The translations under genes were made by a program, and so were the position numbers. A DNA stretch of 20,000 nt, taken from IMG/VR virus record IMGVR_UViG_3300035698_024761; one strand, 5' to 3'. Positions 2,529-15,698 of the stretch are shown piece by piece. The stretch comes from an uncultured virus (IMG/VR IMGVR_UViG_3300035698_024761). Lineage: Duplodnaviria; Heunggongvirae; Uroviricota; Caudoviricetes. Below the pieces are notes generated by a model. It did not search any database. It saw only the letters and a program-made list of their open reading frames with translations, and was not told the origin of the DNA. Every line of letters starts with the position of its first letter. The first letter of the stretch is position 1.

Positions 2529-3473
2529 TTACACGTCTCGAAAAAATTTCCGCGTATACTCGTTGGCGTGACGACCCCGCAAAAATTCAAAGATCCGCGG
2601 ATGCTCGTCTAGCACGGCAAATAGCATGGTACGCGCTCGACGCGCTTGCCGCTGGTAACCCTGCAAGTTACCCGCAAGAGCTTTCTGGGCCTGTTTATCT
2701 GGATGCTTGAGCAAATTGCACCATCGCCCGTAGTGATAGTACTCTGATTGCGCCTTCCTCGAACGGGCGAGTACGGCCACCGACTCGCCCGCTTGCGTCA
2801 TCACATGCATAGTCAAGCTTAGCGCCGTTTGCTCACAGAAATACTTATTTGCTAGAGGTCCCCGCTTAACCTGCTTCCAAAGCTGCGACCATGTACGGAT
2901 AAACTGCTGCCGCAACGGCAAGTCGATGCCTACTAAACCCCCATTTACAAGCTCTGGGCCTAAAAAATCATCATCATGCATAACCCGGTCCGCCGGCAAT
3001 GCCACCCCAGCATGCTTGAAAATCTGTTTCCAGCTATTCCGCAGAAATTTGCCGGCGCTGCGTCCCACGCGTCGCAGTACAATCCGCGAATCAAACCACT
3101 TGCCATACGTTATAGGCTGCCAACAAATCTGATCGCTGTCAAGAAAGACAACCATATCACAATCTTTTGGCTGCTCCAAGCAGACCCATTTGTTTGTAAA
3201 AAATGGCGCCTTCTCCTTACCAGTATACCGCTGACGCCGCACCCGCGGCGGTGACATATACGCGTTGCGCGCCTTCACCACCTCTACATCCAGATCACGC
3301 AGAATCTTTAGCGATATCGGCGACGGCGTGCCAAAAATACGTGAAGGCAACGGTACAATAGCCACCAATTTGGCAGGAAAAGTCAAATGTCGTCGCATAG
3401 ACGCTGCCAGTACCATCGCCTCGCACTCTAATTGCCCATCTTGACAGATAAACGTATAGGTGATGCTTTTCAT
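2529..3473 (-). CDS. GT-A fold glycosyltransferase-like protein (GT8-like)
   Basis: N-terminal beta strand plus LAASMR helix, NKW, DxD motif (VVFLDSDQI), NGGLV and EQTALSL motifs typical of GT8-like nucleotide-sugar transferases. Confidence 0.7.
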   Translation of the reverse strand: MKSITYTFICQDGQLECEAMVLAASMRRHLTFPAKLVAIVPLPSRIFGTPSPISLKILRDLDVEVVKARNAYMSPPRVRRQRYTGKEKAPFFTNKWVCLEQPKDCDMVVFLDSDQICWQPITYGKWFDSRIVLRRVGRSAGKFLRNSWKQIFKHAGVALPADRVMHDDDFLGPELVNGGLVGIDLPLRQQFIRTWSQLWKQVKRGPLANKYFCEQTALSLTMHVMTQAGESVAVLARSRKAQSEYYHYGRWCNLLKHPDKQAQKALAGNLQGYQRQARRARTMLFAVLDEHPRIFEFLRGRHANEYTRKFFRDV

Positions 3474-3610
3474 ATTGTTAGGGCCGACATGCCCCCCGTC
3501 GTGGTTAATGGATTACTCGATAAGCTACCAGCGCAGTCTAGCAGCAAAGTAGATAGTCGCCCAATAACAGCATCGCCAGTTATCATATTCGTGAATCGTG
3601 TCGCGGTAAC

Positions 3611-3758
3611 TAAGATACATAGTATCTTATATACAGCTAAGTTCCAGTTTTGAATCATAGTCGTGAATTGTATCAAATCGTAGAAGATACGTAGTATCTT
3701 ATATACAGCTAAGTTCTTGCCCTCCAGAACTTAGCTGTATATAGCCTTAACGGCTATA
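3611..3758. repeat. AT-rich direct/inverted repeat complex
   Basis: 33-bp direct repeat AAGATAC(A/G)TAGTATCTTATATACAGCTAAGTTC at 3612-3644 and 3684-3716. Perfect 18-bp inverted repeat at 3700-3717/3726-3743. Smaller hairpins at 3611-3629, 3684-3700 and 3740-3758. Confidence 0.9.
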
Positions 3759-3861
3759 ACTCCAGCACGGCTCGGTCTGCGACCTCCCCAGCTGCAGTTG
3801 TTGTTACTTCTTTCTTTTTGACTAGTGTTAGTATTGGTGTTAGTGAATAGCTGGCAATGCA

Positions 3862-4290
3862 GACATGGTAGGCCAGGGTTTCAACGCGATCGCGGACTGT
3901 AATGTCAAGCAACTATTCAATGGGTTTCATCAGCAATTTGGCCAAATATGTTAAGGCAACGGCCCAATGGGTTTCACAGGCAACACGGCCAGATACGTTA
4001 AGGCAATCTATCCACGAGTTTCACTGACAATTCGGTCAAATATGTTGAGGCAACTCCTGGGCGGGTTTCATTATTTTCCTGGCCTCAATTTTCTTGCTGA
4101 CAAAAATATAGCTGGCAAACCGCCGTGGGGTTTCATCTCGAGAATGGCCAGATATGTTAAGGCAAAGCCTCGGTGGATTTCATGACGGTAATGGCCAAAT
4201 ATGTTAAGGCACCAGTTGAATGGGTTTCAGGCTCGCAACGGCCAGATATGTTAAGGCAAGTCGTCTTCGGGTTTCACGGGTTTAATGGCG
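3862..4290 (-). ncRNA. TIGR-like dual-spacer array, cluster A (9 units)
   Basis: Plus-strand pattern GGCA-N10-GGGTTTCA-N10-GGCC(ARATATGTTAA). Loop repeats at 3876, 3922, 3969, 4016, 4063, 4128, 4175, 4222 and 4269; mostly 47-bp period; unique spacers. Confidence 0.85.
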
Positions 4291-4306
4291 ACAACAGTCT
4301 ATTACG

Positions 4307-4471
4307 TCAAGCTTCTACCCTAACAGAACAATACTTTCTTTCTCCTGTCCAACTTTCGCTCTTTACCCACTCTTTGGCTTCTTCTTCCGTGTTGACTGTT
4401 TGCCCTGTTGGCTTCGGGCTTGAACGAAGCGTTCCATCACCATCCTCCATCAAAACGTAAACTGTCCTCAT
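4307..4471 (-). CDS. small protein between array clusters (54 aa, MRTVYVLMEDGDGTLRSSPKPTGQTVNTEEEAKEWVKSESWTGERKYCSVRVEA)
   Basis: Translated by hand (below track cutoff). Strong RBS GAGGAGATATAA-ATG; fills the gap between clusters A and B. Confidence 0.8.
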   Translation of the reverse strand: MRTVYVLMEDGDGTLRSSPKPTGQTVNTEEEAKEWVKSESWTGERKYCSVRVEA

Positions 4472-4480
4472 TTATATCTC

Positions 4481-4704
4481 CTCACATCCTTTTCGGGTTT
4501 CAGAGAGAGTGCGGCCGAATACATTAAGGCACGACCGGCCCGGGTTTCAAATCACAGAAGGCCAGATATGTTAAGGCACACGGGTAACGGGTTTCAGTCA
4601 CACGACAGCCAGATATGTTAAGGCAAGTCCTTAGCGGGTTTCATTTCGCACTCGGCCAAATATGACAAGGCAGGCAATTAGTGGGTTTCACGCGACGATC
4701 GGCC
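4481..4704 (-). ncRNA. TIGR-like dual-spacer array, cluster B (5 units)
   Basis: GGGTTTCA at 4495, 4542, 4589, 4636 and 4683 (exact 47-bp period), each flanked by 10-nt variable segments and the edge repeat. Confidence 0.85.
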
Positions 4705-4731
4705 TATTATGTTTCTGTACTTCCAATTCGA

Positions 4732-4926
4732 TTACAGGATAGTGTTTGTCGCCGTTACGGCCGCGTAACGGGCCGTAAGGCCCATTTTCTTTGCTCTTGC
4801 GTTCCGTTCCTCGGCCGATTCCTCGGCCGATTTCAGGTCGTTGTAGCCTTGCACTACGTCGCCGTTTGCGTGAAGCACGCGGAAAGGCCTCGTCAGGTAG
4901 TCTGGGTTTTTCTTCTCAGTGGACAT
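4732..4926 (-). CDS. small protein between array clusters (64 aa, MSTEKKNPDYLTRPFRVLHANG...)
   Basis: C-terminal part of track ORF 4732..5106. ATG 4926 follows a purine-rich leader; the upstream extension is array sequence. Confidence 0.7.
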   Translation of the reverse strand: MSTEKKNPDYLTRPFRVLHANGDVVQGYNDLKSAEESAEERNARAKKMGLTARYAAVTATNTIL

Positions 4927-4999
4927 CGTTCTTTTTCTCGAAGTTAAAATTACGTGATTAAGACTCCAACATACGAATAGTGCAGCCAAATACGTTAAA

Positions 5000-5288
5000 A
5001 GCATCCCGAACCTGGATTTCAAGGCGCCAATGGCCAAATATGTTAAGGCAGGGCTGTCGCGGGTTTTACCGACTAAACGGCCAAATATGTTAAGGCAATA
5101 CATCAATGGGTTTCATTGCCTGTGCAGCCAAATATGTTAAGGCAAGCGCTTCAAGGATCTCATCGCGGCCTCGGCCAAATATGTCAAGGCATACCCCCGG
5201 CGGGTTTCAAAGTCGGACTAGCCTCAATTTTTTTGCTGACAAAAATATAGCTGGCATTCCTGCCACAGGTTTCACAAAGACTTCAGCC
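5000..5288 (-). ncRNA. TIGR-like dual-spacer array, cluster C (6 units, plus an extra edge repeat at 4984-5003)
   Basis: Loop repeats at 5014, 5061, 5108, 5155, 5202 and 5267; 47-bp period except across one long edge repeat. Confidence 0.85.
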
Positions 5289-5301
5289 GGCTATGGCGAC
5301 T

Positions 5302-5880
5302 TTAGGTTGTAGGGTAACCCTGGCCAAACGGATTAAGGGGATCGCAGACTGGACTTAGCGCGCTTGCGGCGGCGGTCAGCGCCAATGCTAGCCGTCTCGC
5401 ATCCGAGTCCGGCTGCGATTCCGGCTGCGATTCCGGCTGCGATTCTTCCTGCCGTGACAGCATCCGATATGTGTGCATAATCATTTCGCTGAGTGTGTTG
5501 GCAGCGCGCTGCGGAAAACGCCGGGCGTACTCCACGACAAAGCCGTGCGCACAAGCAAATTCGAAATTCGACTTGCCGATGGACATCGCACTTTTGATAG
5601 CATAATGCAGGCCCACATGCCTATTAAAACTATCACGAGGATTCAGCGCAGAGGCGCCAATGCAAATGCAAGGTCCCGTATCTAACACAAAGGCAACACC
5701 TATCGGCCGGCCGCGGCCTGCGTAATAGGCCATGCCGGCCATTTTCTTACTTAGCTCTTCGGCGTTTACAGGACACCTGTGATCGTCGCGAACAATCCGC
5801 ACCCACGGGTGCTGCGTTCGTCGAAATCCATCGGCCTCCTCACGACATTGCTCAATAAACGCTTGGCGTGATTTTGCCAT
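5302..5880 (-). CDS. hypothetical phage protein (192 aa) with C-terminal ESQP repeats, between clusters C and D
   Basis: AAGGAG RBS and ATG; GxS...DxFxxxxG pattern like small phage proteins. Confidence 0.8.
   Translation of the reverse strand: MAKSRQAFIEQCREEADGFRRTQHPWVRIVRDDHRCPVNAEELSKKMAGMAYYAGRGRPIGVAFVLDTGPCICIGASALNPRDSFNRHVGLHYAIKSAMSIGKSNFEFACAHGFVVEYARRFPQRAANTLSEMIMHTYRMLSRQEESQPESQPESQPDSDARRLALALTAAASALSPVCDPLNPFGQGYPTT
5408..5443. repeat. 12-bp tandem repeat TCCGGCTGCGAT x3 (in-frame ESQP)
   Basis: Directly visible in the sequence. Confidence 0.9.
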
Positions 5881-5923
5881 TGATAATCTCCTTTTAGATT
5901 CCCTTGATTAAACGTTAGCGGCG

Positions 5924-6085
5924 GACAGCTGTCGTTTGGATTCCACCCTTGTATCTAAATAGTAGGCAAAATTCCCAGAGATTTCACGTCGAACACGGCC
6001 CACTATGCCTTTGGGTTTCATAGTCCATATGGGCGGCCAAATATGTTAAGGCACGCGCGGTTCTGCTTTCAGAAGTCGTACGGCC
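5924..6085 (-). ncRNA. degenerate TIGR-like cluster D (about 4 units)
   Basis: Loop variants GGATTCCA 5938, AGATTTCA 5979, GGGTTTCA 6013 and TGCTTTCA 6064 with 10-nt spacing. Perfect edge repeat GGCCAAATATGTTAAGGCA at 6035-6053. Confidence 0.65.
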
Positions 6086-6432
6086 GGGGTATATCGCCAG
6101 ACGATTCGCTCGACGAGCATTTCATTTGCCAGGTATACCTGATACGGACTATGTGATTTGGGAAGCACACCTCGCACACGACAACGCACGATGGCTTTGG
6201 GTGCTACGTTCTTGAATCGCGAAAGAAGGCTCTTAGCGTCATCCAGCCGCAGGAAAATGTGCCATCCAGAGGTATACCAAGTCGTGCCGCCGTCACGCAC
6301 GCGCTTCCGCTCTGCCTTGAGCCACATATTCCGAGGAATCGTACGCGATCCGTGAAAGCCGTGGAATAGGGTTTTGATATTTGGCCCGGCAACGTCTACG
6401 AGTCGATAGGCTACAGTTTCTTCGCTTTTCAT
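6046..6432 (-). CDS. hypothetical basic phage protein (128 aa; KTLFHG...YTSGWH)
   Basis: ATG 6432 overlaps the TAA of the upstream gene (TAATG); the stop codon lies in an array edge repeat. Confidence 0.75.
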   Translation of the reverse strand: MKSEETVAYRLVDVAGPNIKTLFHGFHGSRTIPRNMWLKAERKRVRDGGTTWYTSGWHIFLRLDDAKSLLSRFKNVAPKAIVRCRVRGVLPKSHSPYQVYLANEMLVERIVWRYTPAVRLLKAEPRVP

Positions 6433-6974
6433 TATCCGTAATCCACGTCCGTATTTTTGGGGAGGCTTACGGTCTGATCGCCTACGAAAACATCCAATGA
6501 GCTTTCCTCCTGTTCCCATTTGCCATTAGCGAAGCCGGAATTGTCGTCATAGTGTAAATAGGCAGACTGTATGCAGGTATCATAGAGACAAAGCTGATAC
6601 GCACTACCGTCCTTTATCGCAACAAACGCAAACCGATTGCTGTTGCTATTGCAACCCTTGCGAACGACTAATAGCCCGTTGTTGTTGGCCCACGCTGCGA
6701 CGTCTGGCGGAATTTCACCTTTATGCGGAAAGAGGAGCAGCTGCGGATACTTGTGTAATTGCAAGCGTGGCGACATCTGCCGCGTCCGCTTGCCCGTGTC
6801 ACGCACGATCTGAATATCAAAATTAAAGCCATGCTTGTTGCACATGCCCACTTTCGTGACTGTGATGCATTGCCATATGCCTTTACGTGTTATTTTGAGC
6901 AATCCTAAATCCCCCACTTTGGCATTGCCAGCAGGGAATCCATGCGGCTTGTGTGGCTTCTCAGACTTTTTCAT
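6432..6974 (-). CDS. hypothetical protein (180 aa)
   Basis: GGAG RBS, ATGA overlap, coupled to both neighbours. Confidence 0.75.
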   Translation of the reverse strand: MKKSEKPHKPHGFPAGNAKVGDLGLLKITRKGIWQCITVTKVGMCNKHGFNFDIQIVRDTGKRTRQMSPRLQLHKYPQLLLFPHKGEIPPDVAAWANNNGLLVVRKGCNSNSNRFAFVAIKDGSAYQLCLYDTCIQSAYLHYDDNSGFANGKWEQEESSLDVFVGDQTVSLPKNTDVDYG

Positions 6975-7234
6975 GCTAACTCCGAATCTCCTTCGGCTTC
7001 CTCAACAGTAATGTGTGTCGCTACCTTAATGACAATAGCGTCGGCGTGGCGAGCATCCGGCAACGATCGAAATAGATTTGCCCAATGCTCAGCGACAACT
7101 AATCGCGGGAATATCGTGGCTTTCTCCGCGTTGCTTAGATATTCGCCGCCGGGCGTATCAGCGTCCAAATATAGCGATTTGGTGTTGTCTACCCGTCCAT
7201 GCGGGCGATAGCAGATTGCATATTTGATTAGCAT
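6971..7234 (-). CDS. hypothetical protein (87 aa)
   Basis: Coupled to the downstream ORF; purine-rich leader. Confidence 0.65.
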   Translation of the reverse strand: MLIKYAICYRPHGRVDNTKSLYLDADTPGGEYLSNAEKATIFPRLVVAEHWANLFRSLPDARHADAIVIKVATHITVEEAEGDSELA

Positions 7235-7325
7235 GTAGCTTGCTCTTTCTTAGGAGACTAGGCTTTCCCGTTTGAAAAAGTCTGCTCTCTCTGTAATAAT
7301 GAACTTCGGCAGAAAGGAGTTTGCC

Positions 7326-8177
7326 ATGAGTTTTAGCAGAATGCTAATACCCTTTCGCGTGCTGGCGTTGCCGCTATTGTTTGCAATCAACGCCTTTGGT
7401 CAGTCGCCCGAATGGATCGAGGTGCCGGCGCTTCGACAGGTTAGTACCCGCATTGGCACAGTCTTGGCTGATATCGATAGTCGACTGCCGGCAACAAGCA
7501 ACCAATACACGTTTAGCAGTAGCACCTATCGCGACGCGGATTTATCTTGCTGGGCGCACGAGGCGACCCATGGTGTCAACGCCCGCATTCGCAACCAGTA
7601 CGGCGACAGCACGGGCGTCGATAACGGATTCTATGTACTCCACGGACGAGGCGTACTTATTAGAGAACCCTGTCCGTTGACGTTTCCCGAGGTGTCCCGG
7701 CAAGTACCGCTAGCATTGCGTGCGCAAGGCTATCCGCTCTACATGGTGCAGCAGGCGCAGGTGTGGCGAGAGCATCCACTCAATATCGTGGATGAGTGGA
7801 CAGCCTACGTTAACGGCGCGTACGCAACGATGGAATACGAAGCGACTGGCCGTCCGCACCACGGATCCCACGATGTAGCTCGCGCGGTAGAAATGGGCAT
7901 CTATACGCTCGTGCTAGCCCGGCAGATTGCGATCGGCATCCACAAGCAAACGCTCGCTTATGACGATACACAGTTCCGCTTTTATACAGGCTGGCATTGG
8001 TGTCGTACTCGCGATCTGATGGCCAAATCCGCTAAGTATCCGCGTCTTCAGGGCGGGGATCCGATGGCGTTGCTTGACAAACTTCGTCTGTCGCGAGACG
8101 CTCAGACGGCGAATCTTCGGGATTGGTTGCGGGTGTACTTTGGGAAGGCGTGGTGCCAGGCGGTACTCGACTTTTGA
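7326..8177 (+). CDS. putative secreted zincin-like (HExxH) metallopeptidase
   Basis: AAAGGAG RBS before ATG 7326; signal-peptide-like N-terminus (RVLALPLLFAINAFG|QS); WAHEATHG motif and downstream DEW as a possible third ligand. Confidence 0.65.
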   Translation: MSFSRMLIPFRVLALPLLFAINAFGQSPEWIEVPALRQVSTRIGTVLADIDSRLPATSNQYTFSSSTYRDADLSCWAHEATHGVNARIRNQYGDSTGVDNGFYVLHGRGVLIREPCPLTFPEVSRQVPLALRAQGYPLYMVQQAQVWREHPLNIVDEWTAYVNGAYATMEYEATGRPHHGSHDVARAVEMGIYTLVLARQIAIGIHKQTLAYDDTQFRFYTGWHWCRTRDLMAKSAKYPRLQGGDPMALLDKLRLSRDAQTANLRDWLRVYFGKAWCQAVLDF

Positions 8178-8565
8178 CCCTGCCTGCTTCCACCAATTCA
8201 TCCCACGACGCCACTACATTCTCCGGCAACTTCGCGGGAAGAAGATCTTTGAGGGCATGCAAATCGCCAATAATCGCCAGATATACAGCAGGGATCGACT
8301 CGCCCACACGCCAAACGACTGCTAGAAATTCGGCCATTACAACGCCGATGGTGGTGAACACTGCCATAACATCGAAGAGTTCTATCGAGCGACTGACGCG
8401 TTCGCCATCAAGATATAAGAAATGGCCGTAGGTTTCAGGCTCGTTGGGCCGACTGGCCGCTGTCTCGTTGACTAGCTGTATTCGCTCAGGGCAAACTTTC
8501 GCCATCTTTTGGCAGATCTGTATCAAGCGACTCGAAACGCTTTCGTGCTTTGGTTCCTCAATCAT
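8032..8565 (-). CDS. hypothetical protein (about 177 aa), C-terminus overlaps the convergent gene
   Basis: AAAGGA RBS and ATG 8565 overlapping the upstream gene end. Confidence 0.6.
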   Translation of the reverse strand: MIEEPKHESVSSRLIQICQKMAKVCPERIQLVNETAASRPNEPETYGHFLYLDGERVSRSIELFDVMAVFTTIGVVMAEFLAVVWRVGESIPAVYLAIIGDLHALKDLLPAKLPENVVASWDELVEAGRVKSRVPPGTTPSQSTPATNPEDSPSERLATDEVCQATPSDPRPEDADT

Positions 8566-8884
8566 GCTGCTTTCCTTTGAGTTTACGAATCTTGAATACT
8601 GTAGGGCGAAGCTGCTTATAGAGTACCAGTCCCGCTTTACCGAAACGGCGCTCGACAGCTGCCAAGGGCAATTCTTTTGGCAGCGGCCTAACGACTTCCG
8701 CAATAAACTTCTTGTCGTCGAGCCCTTTGACATTGTCAGGCCAAAACGCGGTAAGATCTACTTTGAATAGTTCGCGGACTGCCGCATAGTGATGCATATG
8801 GGTCACGCCATGGAGCGTAATAGTTCGCTGCATTGTGCTGGACACATCCGACGAGTCGCGGCTAGCTCGCTGCTTTTTTGTCAT
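8558..8884 (-). CDS. hypothetical protein (108 aa)
   Basis: Overlaps both neighbours in an operon-like run. Confidence 0.65.
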   Translation of the reverse strand: MTKKQRASRDSSDVSSTMQRTITLHGVTHMHHYAAVRELFKVDLTAFWPDNVKGLDDKKFIAEVVRPLPKELPLAAVERRFGKAGLVLYKQLRPTVFKIRKLKGKQHD

Positions 8885-9851
8885 CTTTCTCGCGTAGGGG
8901 GTTATAGAACTCGGTGAAGCAGCAATGTTGCCGAAGATTTCGCGGTTTGGGTTTCCGCCGCGTAATTTCGAAGTCCATCCATTCGCACAGCTGCGCTGCG
9001 GCTTGCTTCCAACTTTTGCGCGTACGGACCAGCGTGCGCTTCCATTCTTGCTTGAATGTCTGAAACGCGGCTAGTTGGCGATGGGCATTCAATCCATATA
9101 CCATATTAAAAATCTGCACTGTTTGTTTTAGCACGTATGCAGCGTTCTGACGACTACTGTAATAGCTTGAATGGTTGGACATCCACGTACCAATATTATC
9201 GAGCTCAAGCTCACTCGCAAACTTATAGGTAAGGCAAGCGACAGTCGGCGCAGTGACAAAAAGGTCTTGCGGCCTCTGTAGCTCGCGACGGCGTGCAAAC
9301 GCGCGTGCTTTCTTGGGATTGTAAACGATCTCGTTTGCATCGCTGAGGTGACAACCGGCGGCATATAACCGCTTTCGTTCCGTTCCGTTGTAGCTCGCGT
9401 AAAAAAATGATTTGGTCAACTTATTGCATATAATACGCCCATGCGATTTAGCCAACGAAATCGCCTCTTCAATATCGTCGCCGAAATACATCGGATGATC
9501 CCACACGCGTAACGTATCTTCCTTGCCGGCCGGCCCGCCATCATGCGCATAATTAGGCGAGGTAGATCCGTACGCCGCATAGGTGTAAGTAGTGCCGAAA
9601 ACCGTAACGCGAGGCAAGTCGCGATGCGGTGATGGAAATCGCTTATGTAGCGCCGCGACGGCGTCCTGGCGAGTTTTCGCCAGGACGCACTCGGATCGCG
9701 GCGCTGCCATCAATTTGTCAAGATTTGTGCACGCATCCCAAAACGAAGGCTCTTCGCTGCGTTGGATAAATCCTAGAACCTCCGGCCACTGAGTGGCTGC
9801 GGGTACGCGCGTTTCCTTCGTTTGTGATGGCACTGTGACGATCGCAGGCAT
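8862..9851 (-). CDS. hypothetical protein (329 aa)
   Basis: Long ORF starting 2 nt after the upstream stop; no family recognised. Confidence 0.8.
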   Translation of the reverse strand: MPAIVTVPSQTKETRVPAATQWPEVLGFIQRSEEPSFWDACTNLDKLMAAPRSECVLAKTRQDAVAALHKRFPSPHRDLPRVTVFGTTYTYAAYGSTSPNYAHDGGPAGKEDTLRVWDHPMYFGDDIEEAISLAKSHGRIICNKLTKSFFYASYNGTERKRLYAAGCHLSDANEIVYNPKKARAFARRRELQRPQDLFVTAPTVACLTYKFASELELDNIGTWMSNHSSYYSSRQNAAYVLKQTVQIFNMVYGLNAHRQLAAFQTFKQEWKRTLVRTRKSWKQAAAQLCEWMDFEITRRKPKPRNLRQHCCFTEFYNPLREKDDKKAAS

Positions 9852-9852
9852 C

Positions 9853-10539
9853 TTAGCCTACCGAAAGCCTTTTCATGTCCTCAACGACATTGTCGTTGAG
9901 CATTGAGAGCACCTGACGACCGGTTTCCGTGGCGTTCAAGCGAGCTGCAGCCAGTCGTCCTTTCGCCTTTCGCTCATAGCTATCCAGATTGTCCAACTTG
10001 TGTCGCCAGTCGTACTGCGCGTCGCGAGCTGTGGCGACTTGTGCTTCGAGGGCGTGACGTTTTGTCTGCAATTTTACGGTGGGGGCGGCGGCGTCGCAGC
10101 TGAAATGGATAGCCGCTTCGGGATTATCGCGGTGACTTTTTACGGCTACAAGCACTTTTCCGTTTATTTTGATCGTCGATCCGCTTATAAACGTAGTGGC
10201 CTGGATCTTTGTGATCGGGTCGTATTTCAGCGACTTAAACGCGGCGTTGAGTTGCTTTGCGGCTGTCGCGGCGAACCTCTGCGCGGTTTCATTGCATTGC
10301 AGCTGTATCTGCGAGGCGATCGCATCGATTTCTTTGCCTAGTCGGTGCTGCTCGCTACGGAAGTTGTTAATCTGCTCTTGGCAGACGTCTTCGGCGCGAG
10401 ACATGGCCAGGGCCAGTACATCGTCTTTGTCCAATTCGGAATGCAACGGAAACTCGTCGCCTTGTAACACTGGAATACCTTTGATCGGTGCGATATGCGT
10501 GGTCGGTGCCTTGCTATTCGCGCGTGTGTGCTTCGCCAT
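9853..10539 (-). CDS. coiled-coil-rich hypothetical protein (228 aa)
   Basis: AGGAG RBS; two heptad-rich helices flank a beta-rich centre. Confidence 0.8.
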   Translation of the reverse strand: MAKHTRANSKAPTTHIAPIKGIPVLQGDEFPLHSELDKDDVLALAMSRAEDVCQEQINNFRSEQHRLGKEIDAIASQIQLQCNETAQRFAATAAKQLNAAFKSLKYDPITKIQATTFISGSTIKINGKVLVAVKSHRDNPEAAIHFSCDAAAPTVKLQTKRHALEAQVATARDAQYDWRHKLDNLDSYERKAKGRLAAARLNATETGRQVLSMLNDNVVEDMKRLSVG

Positions 10540-10850: not shown

Positions 10851-10997
10851 GGCGTTATCTCCATGCGGGTTATCCAATTTGGTTTTTACAGCACCAGCGG
10901 GATTTGGTAAACTGAGGAATGCTCCAAAACACCTGCTCGCGCAGAAGATTTACCAAGGCGTGAAACTTCACCGAGCATTGAAAGCGAGGCAACTCAA

Positions 10998-11495
10998 ATG
11001 GCCATGGATAGGCGATCCAGGAAACGTAAGGCTCTCGATGAGCTTGACCAACTATCATAATATGCACACCTATCAGAAGATGAGAAACTTTCCAAGATTC
11101 GTGAGCTCGAACGTAAGCTCGCGACAGCCGAGGTCGAACAAAAGGCGTTGGCCGAAAAGCACAAGCAGGCTGAGGGCCAACGGAGGCCGCCATCTACGCT
11201 CAGAATCACCTCTATACCGGAATAGAGCGGCTAATAAAGGCGGCGAATGTCTCCAATATACTGTTTACCGCTAATCACGGCAACCACGGACGTGCTACAC
11301 AACGAAAACGAATCAGCACGGGTTGGAAGACATCTTGGGAGTGGATGACCTGCAACAATATCGCGCTACGCTACTCCGATAATCCAAAAGTGCAATGCAA
11401 GCTAGCCAAAGGTTACATTAACCTTGTAAACATTCAAGGACATCCCGCGCGCTTTCATCACGGGGATGCCATGCGTTTCCAGGGCGGCGTAGGTT
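10998..11495 (+). pseudogene. decayed calcineurin-like metallophosphoesterase gene with N-terminal coiled coil
   Basis: ATG 10998 gives MAMDRRSRKRKALDELDQLS*YAHLSEDEKLSKIRELERKLA... with in-frame TAA at 11058. A different frame from 11174 gives GPTEAAIYAQNHLYTGIERL...NHGNHGR...SWEW...RFHHGDAMRFQGGVG. GNH and HGD motifs are present; DxH, GD and the C-terminal GHxH motifs are missing. Confidence 0.7.
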
Positions 11496-11904
11496 GCATG
11501 CGGCAACCGGCTGTCGATAGAATTGTAGCAGTACATCGGCGGGTTTCATGCCAGTAGCGGCTATCGATAGAACAGTGGCAGATCTCTCGCGGGTTTCACA
11601 AGTTGCTTGGCCGTATAGGAGGCAGCATATTCAATTCGGGTTTCAAATCAATCACAGCTGCCGTTAAATGTCATGGCAAAACGAGGTCAGGTTCCATTGC
11701 GGCATCGGCCATATAAAGGATAGCAGTTTAGGAACGGGTTACACGCAACGCTTGAAAGCAACGCAACGCACGTTTGGGATGCATGGCCGACACGGCGCTA
11801 TGTAGATTAAAGGGCAAAACTCAGCTGGAATGCATTCATTGTTTGGCCTTTATGGTATTATAAAAGTAGGCAATTGCCATCTAGATTTCATTGTACGTCT
11901 GGCC
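11477..11904 (-). ncRNA. TIGR-like dual-spacer array, cluster E (8 clear units plus a junction unit) with variable edge repeats
   Basis: Loop repeats at 11491, 11541, 11591, 11638, 11689, 11736, 11776, 11827 and 11883, nearly all in (A/G)GCA-N10-loop8-N10-(G/A)GCN context. Confidence 0.8.
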
Positions 11905-12024: not shown

Positions 12025-12528
12025 ATGGCGCGTAACAAGTTGCCGACACTTGCAATTTGTGGGCATGGTCGCTGCGGTAAAGATACGGTGTCCGTATGGT
12101 TGGCAGAGCATACACGACTGCGATACTCTAAAAGCACTAGCGAGGCCAGCGCTATGCTATGCTATGAGCAGCTAAAGGACAAATATGGCTACGCAAACGT
12201 GCAAGACGCCTTTGCCGATCGACATAACCATCGCAGAGAATGGGCTAAATGCATCTGGCAATACAATCAACCGGACGGGCTCACTCTCTACCGCGACATG
12301 GCTGACAGCACGGACATATTCAACGGTACGCGCAGGGCGGCCGAGTTGACTGCATGCATAGCCGCGGGTATTGTTGATTTGAGTATTTGGATCGACAGAT
12401 ACGTGCCCATAGACCCATCGTGCGAGCTTGCGATGCAAGATTGCGATATCGTGATCCAGAACCATACGACGCTTCCGGCGCTATATGTGAAGCTTGCGAA
12501 TTTCTCGCGAGCACTAAACAGATTTTAG
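12025..12528 (+). CDS. deoxynucleoside monophosphate kinase-like P-loop protein
   Basis: N-terminal Walker A LAICGHGRCGKDT, GxR..E motif, IWIDR and C-terminal DIVIQN typical of phage dNMP-kinase-like proteins; GGAG RBS. Confidence 0.75.
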   Translation: MARNKLPTLAICGHGRCGKDTVSVWLAEHTRLRYSKSTSEASAMLCYEQLKDKYGYANVQDAFADRHNHRREWAKCIWQYNQPDGLTLYRDMADSTDIFNGTRRAAELTACIAAGIVDLSIWIDRYVPIDPSCELAMQDCDIVIQNHTTLPALYVKLANFSRALNRF

Positions 12529-14566: not shown

Positions 14567-15289
14567 TTATTCGTCATCCGAATCAAATGGATTGTCCGTC
14601 AACGCGTCAAGCGTCTTCCACGCCTTACAGGTTGGACATTCCGGCATATATTCTGGGCATCGCTCCCCGAAGAACATCGTCAACAATCGCTCGCCCGCAT
14701 CGCGCGTGTGTGCGGCCATCCTAGCAAATTTATCGTAGTCGCTTATCTGCCCGCGCGTACAAAGGTCATCCGCGTCTGCGACTATAGGTTTTTGGTCAAT
14801 CTGCTTGGAAAGGTCTGTAAGGACATCTTGGTCAGAAAGTCTTGCATCCATTTCATCACAGGTCTCAGGATTGCAGTGCAACCCGGCCACTATAGTGAGA
14901 TAGAATTCACACCAAAAATCCCGCACATGTATGTCGGGGTGCTTGTAGCAAATGATCTCCGCCGCGTGCATTAAGTGCATCAAGAAATGATGTGGATAAG
15001 CGTCCGGATCATCCACCACAGTAGACATTGCCACCCGAGTTGATCCATCTCTTTCCCCCAAAAACGTCCGCTTAGGATTATTAGGCCTAGCCGACCGCAT
15101 AAACGCGGCCCGCAACGCACGAGTCAAGATCTTGGACGGATCATTCTTACTAAAACCATCCACACCCCGCACCGCCGTTAGCAACACTGACTGCTGCATC
15201 ATTGGAATGTGCTGGGTCCATGCCTGGAGAACTGATCTCCATACGTGTGGATGGGCAAATGCACCGCTCTCAATCGCATCCGGTCTCAT
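14567..15289 (-). CDS. hypothetical phage protein (240 aa; SVLQAW...QQSVLLTAVRG.D...PHHFLMHLMHAAEI...LH.NPE)
   Basis: GGGAG RBS, ATGA overlap, His-rich helical motif; function unknown. Confidence 0.8.
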   Translation of the reverse strand: MRPDAIESGAFAHPHVWRSVLQAWTQHIPMMQQSVLLTAVRGVDGFSKNDPSKILTRALRAAFMRSARPNNPKRTFLGERDGSTRVAMSTVVDDPDAYPHHFLMHLMHAAEIICYKHPDIHVRDFWCEFYLTIVAGLHCNPETCDEMDARLSDQDVLTDLSKQIDQKPIVADADDLCTRGQISDYDKFARMAAHTRDAGERLLTMFFGERCPEYMPECPTCKAWKTLDALTDNPFDSDDE

Positions 15290-15480
15290 GATTTCTCCCT
15301 TGCTGCTTCGGCGGCTGCCATGGATTGCCGATCAATTATCCATCTCAGGTTCGAACCCGCTTTAGGATCGAGTTCCGTGTGACCTCGTAAGATGCCTTTT
15401 TTGATCAATTTTCGTACCCTATCCTTGGAACATCCCAAACGCCTTGCGGCCTGCTTGATTGTAATGCCATACTCAGTCAT
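15286..15480 (-). CDS. excisionase/MerR-like helix-turn-helix DNA-binding protein (64 aa)
   Basis: ITIKQAARRLGCSKDRVRKLIKKGILRG...WII fits the HTH_17 pattern; TGATG coupling. Confidence 0.8.
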   Translation of the reverse strand: MTEYGITIKQAARRLGCSKDRVRKLIKKGILRGHTELDPKAGSNLRWIIDRQSMAAAEAAREKS

Positions 15481-15698
15481 CACCCGCCCCAATGCCGCCA
15501 CTTTTCAGGTTTGGCTATCGGCTTTGCTTTTTCGTTTAGCACATCAACAACCCACTGAATGATTCGTGTGTCTTTCTCGGTAACTTCTTCCTCAACACAT
15601 CGTTGAAAAACGATACTGCCAGTTGCGTCGCAAATATCAAGTGCATTGGTGCATGTTTGTTCAATTTTCAGCGGGAAAGACAATCCTTCTATCATCAT
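15480..15698 (-). CDS. small hypothetical protein (72 aa)
   Basis: ATGA overlap with the upstream ORF. Confidence 0.6.
   Translation of the reverse strand: MMIEGLSFPLKIEQTCTNALDICDATGSIVFQRCVEEEVTEKDTRIIQWVVDVLNEKAKPIAKPEKWRHWGG

What the first reader, a model, noticed from the sequence alone, without database searches (positions are those of the whole stretch)
4291..5923. Protein-coding genes interleaved cassette-like between array blocks
Seen: the array is split by three intact co-oriented ORFs, 4307-4471 (54 aa), 4732-4926 (64 aa) and 5302-5880 (192 aa), each nearly filling the gap between clusters. The unit at 4481-4516 runs into the GAGGAG RBS of the 54-aa gene. Inference: one transcript would yield both guide RNAs and mini-mRNAs, so array processing could release or regulate these messages. 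Alternatively the repeats act as recombination sites that capture cargo genes, or units spread into intergenic gaps. The small proteins are candidate accessory or anti-defence factors.
Basis: partly seen in the sequence, partly recalled or inferred. Interest (0 to 1): 0.72.

Follow-up and report, generated by a model that had tools for sequence, protein, structure and literature searches.

The report
Phage genes interleaved with TIGR guide array
A salt-lake phage carries a guide-RNA (TIGR-type) array that is broken into four blocks by three small genes on the same strand, so guides and messages probably share one transcript, but nothing yet shows that the genes work with the array.

Summary
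On the minus strand, 3862-6085 contains 23 units of GG-CCR-N9-UGAAACCCR-N9-UG-CC (36 nt), mostly joined by 11-nt linkers (period 47). They form four blocks separated by ORF192 (5302-5880), ORF64 (4732-4926) and ORF54 (4307-4471). The last unit of block C ends in ORF54's GAGGAG ribosome-binding site.

The repeats fit published TIGR rules only on the minus strand. Their loop matches the loops of arrays beside tas homologues in two public phages.

ORF192 is a real gene: it has 10 distant relatives and a confident alpha/beta model with no known fold and no Nop/Tas likeness. ORF64 and ORF54 have start signals and phage-like codon usage but no relatives.

No tas gene was detected in the 20-kb window, and no RNA data exist. 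Co-transcription is therefore inferred. An accessory or anti-defence role is unsupported. Cassette capture has only weak hints: an uninterrupted related array and one possibly chimeric hybrid contig.

Gordonia phage Morrissey also has a non-tas gene between TIGR units. This scan noted two similar cases on other DNA (unchecked AI notes). I class it as a new variant of a known kind, of moderate interest.

The parts
5965..6085 (-). Array block A: 3 units (6050-6085, 5999-6034, 5965-6000). The middle unit has edges GCCC/TGGG and joins the third unit without a linker.
6046..6519 (-). Upstream 157-aa ORF (a later ATG gives 128 aa). Its last 12 codons are the first array unit, and its TAA stop (6046-6048) lies in the edge linker UGCC-UUAAC.
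   Evidence: per-codon score best in its own frame; no family hit
5302..5880 (-). ORF192: a real gene with an AAGGAG site 7 nt before the ATG. Residues 1-139 are conserved in a small family. The C-terminal tail has an ESQP repeat whose 12-nt unit varies in copy number between samples.
4984..5288 (-). Array block B: 6 units plus a complete terminal edge. A 29-nt long linker lies at 5224-5252.
4732..4926 (-). ORF64: a candidate small gene with a weak GAGAAA site. It has one non-synonymous SNP (4811, E39A) relative to the near-identical contig L001.
4481..4704 (-). Array block C: 5 units. It starts with a 5'-truncated edge, and the last unit's 3' edge is replaced by ORF54's ribosome-binding site.
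4307..4471 (-). ORF54: a candidate small gene with a strong GAGGAG site at 4478-4483 overlapping the last 3 nt of unit 4481-4516.
3862..4290 (-). Array block D: 9 units. A 29-nt long linker lies at 4085-4113, differing at one position from the one in block B. The array ends in a 3'-truncated edge followed by TGCCAGCTAT.
11477..11904 (-). Second, degenerate array: about 7 units with the same 36-nt core but variable linkers (11-15 nt between the five contiguous units). It lies in the 1.1-kb gap upstream of the minus-strand genes that begin at 10877.
3582..3743 (.). Region just downstream of the array on the minus strand: two 72-nt tandem copies, each with the palindrome AAGATAC-N3-GTATCTT, plus a perfect 18-bp hairpin (-30.7 kcal/mol, z -5.7) with no U tract. 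It may be a boundary or operator region before the 314-aa gene.

Best explanation
Positions 3862-6085 hold a TIGR-type guide-RNA array read from the minus strand. It is spread over four successive intergenic gaps of a leftward phage operon. The functional unit is the 36-nt piece GG-CCR-N9-UGAAACCCR-N9-UG-CC: two 9-nt spacers, each preceded by a box-C-like CCR and followed by a box-D UG, with an A-rich loop and a 3-bp closing stem. Units are joined by an 11-nt linker that starts with a CUU motif spanning the unit's 3' boundary. ORF192, ORF64 and ORF54 lie between the blocks on the same strand. Most likely (inferred) the whole stretch is transcribed as one long RNA from a promoter upstream of 7234. 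Excision of the guides, by a Tas protein encoded outside this window or by a host RNase, would then cut that RNA into guide RNAs and gene-sized messages. The three genes are most likely ordinary, fast-evolving phage early genes that share the transcript, not dedicated partners of the RNA-guided system. Shown here: the anatomy, the strand (by motif and by comparison with other arrays), the reality of ORF192, and the absence of a detectable tas gene in the window. Inferred: transcription, processing, and the absence of a functional link.
For: Array and unit anatomy come (20 matches against 0.01 expected).

The strand is supported by four points.
- Both repeats start with UG (T in 43 and 42 of 43 units, G in 42 and 43 of 43) and end in CC followed by a purine (42 and 38 of 43) on the minus strand only. 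This matches 'start UG, end CCA' in Faure 2025.
- The loop UGAAACCCR matches the loops ACGAAACCCA and CG(A/T)AACCCA of arrays that run in the same direction as tas homologues in Microcystis phage Mvi-JY20 and Gordonia phage Morrissey. The Mvi-JY20 array ends in a plus-strand intrinsic terminator.
- CUU lies at the unit's 3' boundary in 16 of 23 units (14 in register as CC|UU, 2 shifted by one base), as described for stem-loop tigRNAs.
- In 3 of 3 loci (array 1, array 2, L002) the array follows or precedes genes on the same strand.

The closing stem is paired in 89.7% of its cells and shows A-U, C-G and G-U variants.

The genes are supported as follows. All three ORFs score best in their own frame of six (0.08-0.13 per codon, against 0.08-0.21 for the 17 training genes). 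Shine-Dalgarno sites are visible in the sequence. ORF192 has 10 relatives at E up to 0.001, the best at 2.6e-32, and an AlphaFold model with pLDDT 87.4 built on 11 sequences.

The packing is tight and no convincing internal signal was found. Contigs from three of the four runs laid (X1, X3, X4) bridge ORF-array junctions in the same arrangement (records 3, 4, 5, 6, 20, 26, 27). Morrissey has TIGR units in three successive gaps (44|43, 43|42=tas, 42|41), with the last degenerate unit abutting the next gene's ribosome-binding site. Sharing intergenic space with co-oriented genes is therefore normal for this array type.
Against: No tas gene was found in the window. Pfam, PHROGs and NCBIfam gave no hit on 31 or more ORFs. 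phmmer with SpTasH gave a best E of 0.47, and a 4-sequence Tas profile gave a best E of 6.2, over 289 stop-to-stop ORFs. The system is therefore incomplete as seen.

The strand and co-transcription are inferred, not observed. ORF64 and ORF54 have no relatives, so they may not be genes. The scans cover sigma-70 promoters and simple terminators only, so phage-specific signals would be missed. The two near-identical 29-nt long linkers and the TGCCAGCTAT motif at the array end remain unexplained and could be internal starts or stops. A weak terminator-like hairpin lies at 5252-5265 on the minus strand.
Confidence: 0.5

Rival explanations
1. The embedded genes are functional partners of the array: accessory or anti-defence factors, or genes whose expression is controlled by guide processing. 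For example, Tas bound to the terminal truncated unit could mask ORF54's ribosome-binding site, and cleavage at the edges could set the messages' ends.
For: The ORF54 ribosome-binding site lies inside the last unit of block C. The stop codon of the 157-aa ORF lies in an edge linker. ORF192 sits in the slot that tas occupies in Morrissey. Two exact 10-nt spacer-A matches fall inside ORF192, at 5652-5661 and 5781-5790, where about 0.05 are expected for that gene. Two earlier notes of this scan describe genes fused to TIGR edges in other phages (unchecked).
Against: No family, fold or motif links any of the three proteins to RNA-guided systems. ORF64 and ORF54 are lineage-specific. The related array in L002 runs through 13 units without any embedded gene. 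The spacer matches lack a matching spacer B beside them, and tandem matches do not exceed shuffled controls. Morrissey gp43 is unrelated to ORF192.
Confidence: 0.15
2. The repeats act as recombination substrates that shuffle or capture gene cassettes. On this view the three genes are cargo that entered the array by recombination at repeats.
For: L002 has the same repeats in a different neighbourhood, downstream of a DEDD-exonuclease-like ORF and a RuvC-like ORF (both are leads only). It shares an identical 37-nt segment (edge, spacer B, loop) with window unit 5094-5129. One contig of run X2 follows the window from 4881 to the loop of that unit and then continues as L002 (record 13 and table 7). 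The 29-nt long linkers are near-identical in blocks B and D, which indicates segmental duplication.
Against: The hybrid contig has depth 4 and crosses a 37-nt shared segment, so it may be a k-mer assembly chimera. Among the laid contigs that cross a gene-block junction (runs X1, X3, X4), none shows a form lacking ORF54, ORF64 or ORF192. No integrase or recombinase was found in the window. The sequence at the ORF borders shows no clean split-repeat signature.
Confidence: 0.15
3. ORF54 and/or ORF64 are not genes. On this view the 190-nt and 279-nt gaps are non-coding spacers between sub-arrays, like the roughly 450-nt spacers between the three sub-arrays of the published Peromyscus-gut TasA locus.
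For: Neither ORF has a homologue beyond ORF64's own near-identical copy. The only SNP in ORF64 is non-synonymous. ORFs of 54-64 codons are not rare by chance in sequence of about 50% GC (my own estimate). Published arrays do have non-coding gaps.
Against: Each ORF is best in its own frame of six, with a positive per-codon score. ORF54 has a strong, correctly spaced GAGGAG site. Both ORFs have the operon's orientation and fill 71-87% of their gaps.
Confidence: 0.15
4. The repeats work as DNA rather than RNA, for example as iterons or centromere-like binding sites.
For: The spacing is a regular 47 bp with conserved 19-bp and 8-bp motifs.
Against: The unit architecture and the loop sequence match TIGR arrays beside tas homologues. 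The variable segments have a fixed length. No Rep or ParB family protein was found in the window.
Confidence: 0.03

Closest known systems
Stem-loop / intermediate TIGR arrays of phages, e.g. the gp42 (Tas homologue) locus of Gordonia phage Morrissey (MH271305; units identified here)
   Same: The unit plan is CCA-N9-CG(A/T)AACCCA-N9-CG between paired stems. Units run in the same direction as the genes and occupy successive intergenic gaps. A non-tas gene (gp43) lies between units, and the last degenerate unit abuts the next gene's ribosome-binding site.
   Different: In Morrissey, 9 of the 10 pattern matches lie within about 1 kb of tas (the tenth, at 1324, has one mismatch). Its stems are long (about 12 bp) and differ from unit to unit. 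In the window the stem is a conserved 3 bp, the linker is conserved, there are 23 + 7 units, three non-tas genes are embedded, and no tas is detectable in 20 kb.
Dual-repeat TIGR-Tas, e.g. Salicola phage CGphi29 TasH (NC_020844; Faure et al. 2025, PMC12045711)
   Same: Edge and loop repeats alternate with two short spacers. The repeats end in CC(A). The core is 36 nt, the element is a phage, and the habitat is saline.
   Different: CGphi29 has a 36-nt period, 10-nt repeats, 8-nt spacers, and a single uninterrupted block directly after tasH that ends in an intrinsic terminator. The window has a 47-nt period, a 19-nt edge with an excisable 11-nt linker, four blocks, and no terminator of that kind.
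Peromyscus-gut TasA stem-loop array in three sub-arrays, and tasParB-tasA loci with arrays between genes (Faure 2025, passages seen)
   Same: The array is split into sub-arrays and all of them are expressed. Arrays can lie between two protein genes.
   Different: In those loci the gaps are called intergenic, or the genes are tas or tasParB themselves. Here the gaps hold three unrelated genes. I could not see figs S13 and S14 or table S1.
Intragenic tigRNAs in tas coding sequence (Xu et al. 2026 preprint, 10.64898/2026.09.09.750476, sections 5, 11, 13)
   Same: Guide units and coding sequence share a transcript or even the same bases. Here the first unit forms the last 12 codons of a 157-aa ORF. 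The authors leave open whether such units are co-transcribed or have their own promoters.
   Different: Those cases are described for tas itself, not for unrelated neighbouring genes.

Membership tests
TIGR array (guide component of TIGR-Tas) | Two alternating conserved elements (edge, loop) separated by two short variable spacers of fixed length (8-12 nt) | tested here: met
   43 units were aligned without gaps. The loop is 8 nt, the edges are 4+4 nt, and the two variable segments are 10 nt each (R + 9).
TIGR array (guide component of TIGR-Tas) | Both repeats begin with box D (UG) and end with box C (CCA), the same in edge and loop | tested here: met
   Minus strand only: UG in 42-43 of 43 units at both repeats, and CC followed by a purine in 42 and 38 of 43 (A in 11 and 21). 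The rule is taken from passages of PMC12045711. The deviation is CCR instead of CCA.
TIGR array (guide component of TIGR-Tas) | Adjacent tas gene with a Nop / IS110-type RNA-binding domain | tested here: inconclusive
   None was found in the 20-kb window. As a positive control, Pfam PF02371 finds SpTasH and the Mvi-JY20 Tas but misses Morrissey gp42. The rest of the genome is not available.
TIGR array (guide component of TIGR-Tas) | Transcribed and processed into about 36-nt tigRNAs | not testable with these tools
   No RNA run was listed.
Dual-repeat TIGR class | Uniform 36-nt period with an 8-12-nt edge repeat cut once in the middle | tested here: not met
   The period is 47 nt. The edge is 19 nt (UGCC + 11-nt linker + GGCC), and in array 2 the linkers vary (11-15 nt between contiguous units).
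Stem-loop TIGR class | Units closed by a stem, joined by linkers, with CUU at the stem base | tested here: met
   The closing stem is 3 bp and paired in 89.7% of its cells, with few covariations. CUU lies at the 3' boundary in 16 of 23 units of array 1. Unlike typical members, the stem sequence is conserved and short. The loop is conserved, as in the 'intermediate' arrays mentioned.
Integron-like cassette array (considered for the capture idea) | Integrase gene plus attC-type recombination sites bounding each cassette | tested here: not met
   No integrase or recombinase family was found in 31 or more ORFs. The ORF borders do not carry a common site.
CRISPR array | Single repeat of 25-36 nt alternating with spacers of similar size | tested here: not met
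   There are two different repeats and the spacers are 9-10 nt.

The most novel reading that the evidence does not exclude
Guide-RNA maturation doubles as operon processing. Cleavage at the edge linkers would turn one early transcript into tigRNAs plus three defined mini-messages. The truncated terminal unit that carries ORF54's ribosome-binding site would let the Tas protein gate that gene's translation. The embedded proteins, above all the ORF192 family that sits in the 'tas slot', would then be previously unrecognised TIGR-associated factors that act with a tas gene encoded elsewhere, or even replace it.
Probability: 0.1. Interest if true: 0.75.

Novelty: new variant of a known kind. Interest (0 to 1): 0.42.

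Why it matters
TIGR-Tas biology still lacks answers on three points: how arrays are transcribed, how they grow, and what they target in nature. A locus in which guide units and unrelated genes alternate on one strand, with a ribosome-binding site and a stop codon built into repeat edges, is a natural test case for one question: do guides and messages come from one precursor, and does processing affect gene expression? The Xu 2026 preprint leaves that open even for tas itself. The locus also shows that TIGR-type arrays can lie many kilobases from any recognisable tas gene. The published array finder works around tas loci, so it would miss such arrays. If the genes are only bystanders, the locus is an ordinary example of how compact phage genomes tuck guide units into intergenic gaps.

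Tried and rejected
- **Whole genome:** none is held for this window.
- **Close DNA relatives:** none in the phage collection. The repeat patterns are absent from viral contigs and genome contigs.
- **Metagenome scan:** it returned only a near-identical fragment (L001) and the short L002 contig.
- **ORF192 relatives' contigs:** single-protein scans of viral contigs and genome contigs gave no relative. One marginal hit (L004) I regard as spurious.
- **ORF192 function:**
  - The word-based search found nothing.
  - The Atlas gave only weak unnamed phage clusters.
  - PDB by sequence gave nothing.
  - tblastn against phages gave nothing.
  - The single-sequence fold was useless (pLDDT 43.6).
  - For the good model, Foldseek against PDB gave no match at E <= 0.001 and no Tas chain among the rows shown.
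  - BFVD gave two uncharacterised phage proteins (probability 0.96-0.97, TM 0.51).
  - VIA-align wide gave a best Z of 5.6, a generic alpha/beta arrangement.
- **Self-targets:** tandem spacer A+B matches in the window do not exceed shuffled controls.
- **Rfam:** 0 matches.
- **RNA folding:** block C as naked RNA is no more stable than shuffles (z -0.33). Single units have no common fold.
- **RNA evidence:** no RNA holder is listed. The four runs laid are low-depth DNA contigs, and parts without cover say nothing.
- **Joints in X1:** the joints 4691>5172 and 5144>4651 have short sides (20 and 41 nt) and probably come from repeat cross-alignment.
- **Long linkers as promoters:** I looked for sigma-70-like or Bacteroidota-like promoters in the 29-nt long linkers by eye and found none convincing.
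- **Morrissey gp43 versus the ORF192 family:** unrelated.
- **L002 165-aa ORF:** only a lead to DEDD-type exonucleases (Atlas scores 0.85-0.89), and nothing relevant in PDB.
Full report
**What is there**

The window is phage-like. Nearly all ORFs are ORFans on the minus strand. One plus-strand gene (12025-12528) resembles phage deoxynucleotide-monophosphate-kinase-like genes (34 phage records). The sequence occurs in salt-lake metagenome runs.

Between 3862 and 6085 a 47-nt periodic repeat is obvious. Read on the minus strand, it resolves into 23 units. Each unit is GGCC-N10-TGAAACCC-N10-TGCC (36 nt). Neighbouring units are mostly joined by an 11-nt linker, TTAACATATYT. The core pattern has 20 matches, all on the minus strand, against 0.01 expected.

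The units form four blocks:

| Block | Coordinates | Units |
|---|---|---|
| A | 5965-6085 | 3 |
| B | 4984-5288 | 6 |
| C | 4481-4704 | 5 |
| D | 3862-4290 | 9 |

The blocks are separated by ORF192 (5302-5880), ORF64 (4732-4926) and ORF54 (4307-4471), all on the minus strand. So is the remark that the unit at 4481-4516 runs into the GAGGAG site of the 54-aa gene.

I add three observations:
- The first unit forms the last 12 codons of an upstream 157-aa ORF, and the edge linker supplies that ORF's TAA stop.
- Two 29-nt long linkers, differing at one position, replace the 11-nt linker at 4085-4113 and 5224-5252.
- A second, degenerate array of about 7 units lies at 11477-11904. It has the same 36-nt core but variable linkers, 11-15 nt between its five contiguous units.

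The variable linkers of the second array argue that the 36-nt core, not the linker, is the conserved working piece.

**Is it a TIGR array, and which strand?**

From Faure et al. 2025 (PMC12045711) I read passages found by term search and the whole of section 6. [quoted passage not shown] Both repeats start with UG (box D) and end with CCA (box C). The loop is A-rich, and the mature tigRNAs are 36 nt.

I aligned 43 units: 23 from array 1, 7 from array 2 and 13 from the related contig L002. On the minus strand both repeats start with UG (42-43 of 43). Both end with CC followed by a purine (42 and 38 of 43). The spacers are therefore effectively 9 nt. The plus strand would give GG...CA.

From Xu et al. 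2026 (bioRxiv 10.64898/2026.09.09.750476) I read the abstract, sections 5, 11 and 13, and passages found by term search. That preprint describes a CUU motif at the stem base of stem-loop tigRNAs. Here CUU lies at the 3' boundary of 16 of 23 units, on the minus strand only (14 in register, 2 shifted by one base).

As an independent check, I located arrays next to tas homologues in public phages. The starting point was SpTasH of Salicola phage CGphi29; its accession NC_020844 came from a passage of PMC13421893.
- CGphi29 has a 36-nt-period array after tasH, on the same strand, ending in a terminator.
- tblastn found three further phage Tas homologues.
- In Microcystis phage Mvi-JY20 the array follows tas on the same strand and ends in an intrinsic terminator. 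Its loop is ACGAAACCC(A).
- In Gordonia phage Morrissey the stem-loop units read CCA-N9-CG(A/T)AACCCA-N9-CG in the sense of tas.

The loop in this window, UGAAACCCR, is the same motif on the minus strand. The closing stem (columns 1-3 with 34-36) is paired in 89.7% of its cells, with a few A-U, C-G and G-U variants. This is weak covariation: 16 of 500 shuffles reach the observed pairing. Naked RNA shows no significant fold, as published for tigRNAs.

I conclude that this is a TIGR-type array of an intermediate kind. It has a conserved loop like dual-repeat arrays, and a short stem plus linker like stem-loop arrays. It is read from the same strand as the ORFs.

**Are the ORFs genes?**

ORF192 is a gene.
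- It has a well-placed AAGGAG site.
- It scores best in its own frame.
- In the near-identical contig L001 it differs by an in-frame 12-nt repeat copy.
- An exhaustive phmmer search found 10 relatives at E up to 0.001, the best at 2.6e-32 and 45% identity over residues 1-139. Conserved motifs include GRGxPIGV and GAS..PRD.FN.
- With that 11-sequence alignment, AlphaFold gives pLDDT 87.4.
- The fold is alpha/beta and matches nothing informative. Foldseek against PDB gave no hit at E <= 0.001. BFVD gave two uncharacterised phage proteins. VIA-align gave a best Z of 5.6.
- It does not look like the all-helical Nop domain of Tas. That description of the Nop fold is from my own knowledge.

ORF64 and ORF54 are less certain. 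Each scores best in its own frame. ORF54 has a strong GAGGAG site. But ORF64 has only its own near-identical copy in the databases, and ORF54 has nothing. The single SNP in ORF64 is non-synonymous. I treat them as probable but unproven genes.

**Where is the effector?**

No ORF of the window matches Nop or IS110-type domains in Pfam, PHROGs or NCBIfam.
- phmmer with SpTasH gave a best E of 0.47 over 289 stop-to-stop ORFs of the window and L002.
- A profile of four phage Tas proteins gave a best E of 6.2.
- A helix-hairpin-helix motif search hit only unlikely frames.

The Pfam control shows limited sensitivity. PF02371 finds SpTasH and the Mvi-JY20 Tas but misses Morrissey gp42. The window reaches 3.8 kb beyond one end of array 1 and 14 kb beyond the other. 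tas is therefore either further away in a genome I cannot see or too divergent to detect. That question remains open.

**Relatives and variation**

- L001 is the same sequence (window 4572-10396) with three differences: two SNPs and the 12-nt repeat copy (14 differing alignment columns). It ends inside the array.
- L002 (1664 nt) carries 13 uninterrupted units with the same repeats but different spacers. They lie directly downstream of unrelated genes on the same strand. Those genes are an exonuclease-like ORF (a lead only) and a RuvC-like fragment (my reading of its motifs; no family hit).
- One L002 unit shares its spacer B, loop and edge (37 nt) with window unit 5094-5129.
- Laying contigs of four salt-lake runs on 3300-6700 showed the window's ORF-array junctions bridged in three of them (X1, X3, X4).
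- One depth-4 contig of run X2 follows the window from inside ORF64 through three units and then continues as L002. This could be a real recombinant at the shared segment or an assembly chimera.
- Among the contigs that cross a gene-block junction, none shows a form lacking an ORF.
- No RNA run was available, so expression could not be examined.

**Targets**

Neither the 10-nt nor the 9-nt spacers give tandem A+B matches in the window beyond shuffled controls. Two exact spacer-A 10-mers both fall inside ORF192. About 1.75 exact matches are expected in the whole window and 0.05 in that gene (my arithmetic). Neither has a fitting spacer B beside it. I record this as a curiosity.

**How it most likely works**

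The whole stretch from about 7234 down to at least 3862 is one minus-strand gene string. I found no convincing sigma-70 promoter or intrinsic terminator inside it. Stops lie 13-27 nt before the next unit. One ribosome-binding site and one stop codon are built into repeat edges.

The simplest model has three parts:
- One precursor RNA carries both guides and messages.
- Excision of the 36-nt units at the CUU-bearing linkers is done by a Tas protein or a host RNase. Which one is open in the literature too.
- The pieces left between blocks serve as the messages of ORF192, ORF64 and ORF54.

Morrissey shows the same habit on a smaller scale. It has units in three successive gaps. A non-tas gene (gp43, unrelated to ORF192) lies between them. 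The last degenerate unit touches the next ribosome-binding site. This makes me read the embedded genes as neighbours that share intergenic space with guide units, not as cargo or partners. I hold that reading at about 50%.

**Comparison and novelty**

In the texts I read, arrays are described upstream of, downstream of, flanking or inside tas, between tasParB and tasA, and as three sub-arrays separated by about 450-nt intergenic stretches.
- The terms 'interrupted' and 'orphan' do not occur in Faure 2025.
- 'Orphan', 'interrupt', 'interspersed' and 'subarray' do not occur in Xu 2026.
- A library search for TIGR arrays together with small ORFs or polycistronic transcripts listed nothing relevant beyond these two papers (listings only).
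- I could not see the supplements.

This scan's own notes list two similar cases on other DNA: e1-6026259 (arrays fused to gene boundaries) and e1-5845539 (a 58-codon gene inside an array). These are unchecked AI notes and count as leads only.

The finding is therefore a new variant of a known kind: a hybrid-architecture TIGR array in four blocks, with three unrelated embedded genes and no nearby tas. It would become really interesting only if processing is shown to control the messages, or if the ORF192 family turns out to travel with such arrays.

Noticed in passing
window 11477-11904 (minus strand): A second, degenerate TIGR-type array of about 7 units. It has the same 36-nt core but variable linkers (11-15 nt between the five contiguous units). 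It lies in the 1.1-kb gap between the plus-strand kinase-like gene and the minus-strand genes that start at 10877.
   Followed up: partly
window 4085-4113 and 5224-5252 (minus strand); also 3850-3860: Two 29-nt linkers (AGCTATATTTTTGTCAGCAARAAAATTGA), differing at one position, replace the usual 11-nt linker inside blocks D and B. The same start, TGCCAGCTAT, follows the last unit of the array. They could be fused sub-array ends or internal signals. I found no convincing promoter, only a weak terminator-like hairpin at 5252-5265.
   Followed up: partly
window 6046-6085: The first array unit encodes the last 12 residues of the upstream 157-aa ORF, and the edge linker UGCC-UUAAC supplies that ORF's TAA stop.
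   Followed up: partly
window 3582-3743: Two 72-nt tandem copies, each containing the palindrome AAGATAC-N3-GTATCTT, plus an inverted third copy that forms a perfect 18-bp hairpin (-30.7 kcal/mol, z -5.7). This lies between the array end and the 314-aa gene and looks like an operator or boundary region.
   Followed up: partly
window 5652-5661 and 5781-5790 (inside ORF192): Exact 10-nt matches to spacer A of units 5000-5035 and 4669-4704. These are the only two exact spacer matches in the window and both fall in the embedded gene. Neither has a fitting spacer B beside it.
   Followed up: partly
window 5404-5445 and 4807-4832: 12-nt tandem repeats lie inside ORF192 (ESQP repeats, one more copy in contig L001) and inside ORF64 (SAEE repeats, which carry the only SNP in that ORF).
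   Followed up: partly
L002 36-165 and 365-400: The last three L002 units are near-identical duplicates, a sign of recent unit duplication. One unit shares spacer B, loop and edge with window unit 5094-5129, and a run-X2 contig joins window-type and L002-type units at that point.
   Followed up: partly
L006 / L008 (Gordonia phage Morrissey MH271305, record 32318-34164): Unannotated stem-loop TIGR units lie in three successive gaps around gp42 (a TasH homologue by tblastn that Pfam misses), with gp43 between them. In Mycobacterium phage Rich, units lie inside gp51 and inside gp50, the Tas homologue.
   Followed up: partly
L003 15290-15490 (Salicola phage CGphi29): The annotated 66-aa 'hypothetical protein' SLPG_00019 overlaps the start of the TIGR array and is probably a spurious gene call.
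   Followed up: no
window 15286-15501 (minus strand): A 71-aa ORF has a clear helix-turn-helix domain (PF12728, E 9.8e-8). It is the only confident Pfam domain found in the window.
   Followed up: no
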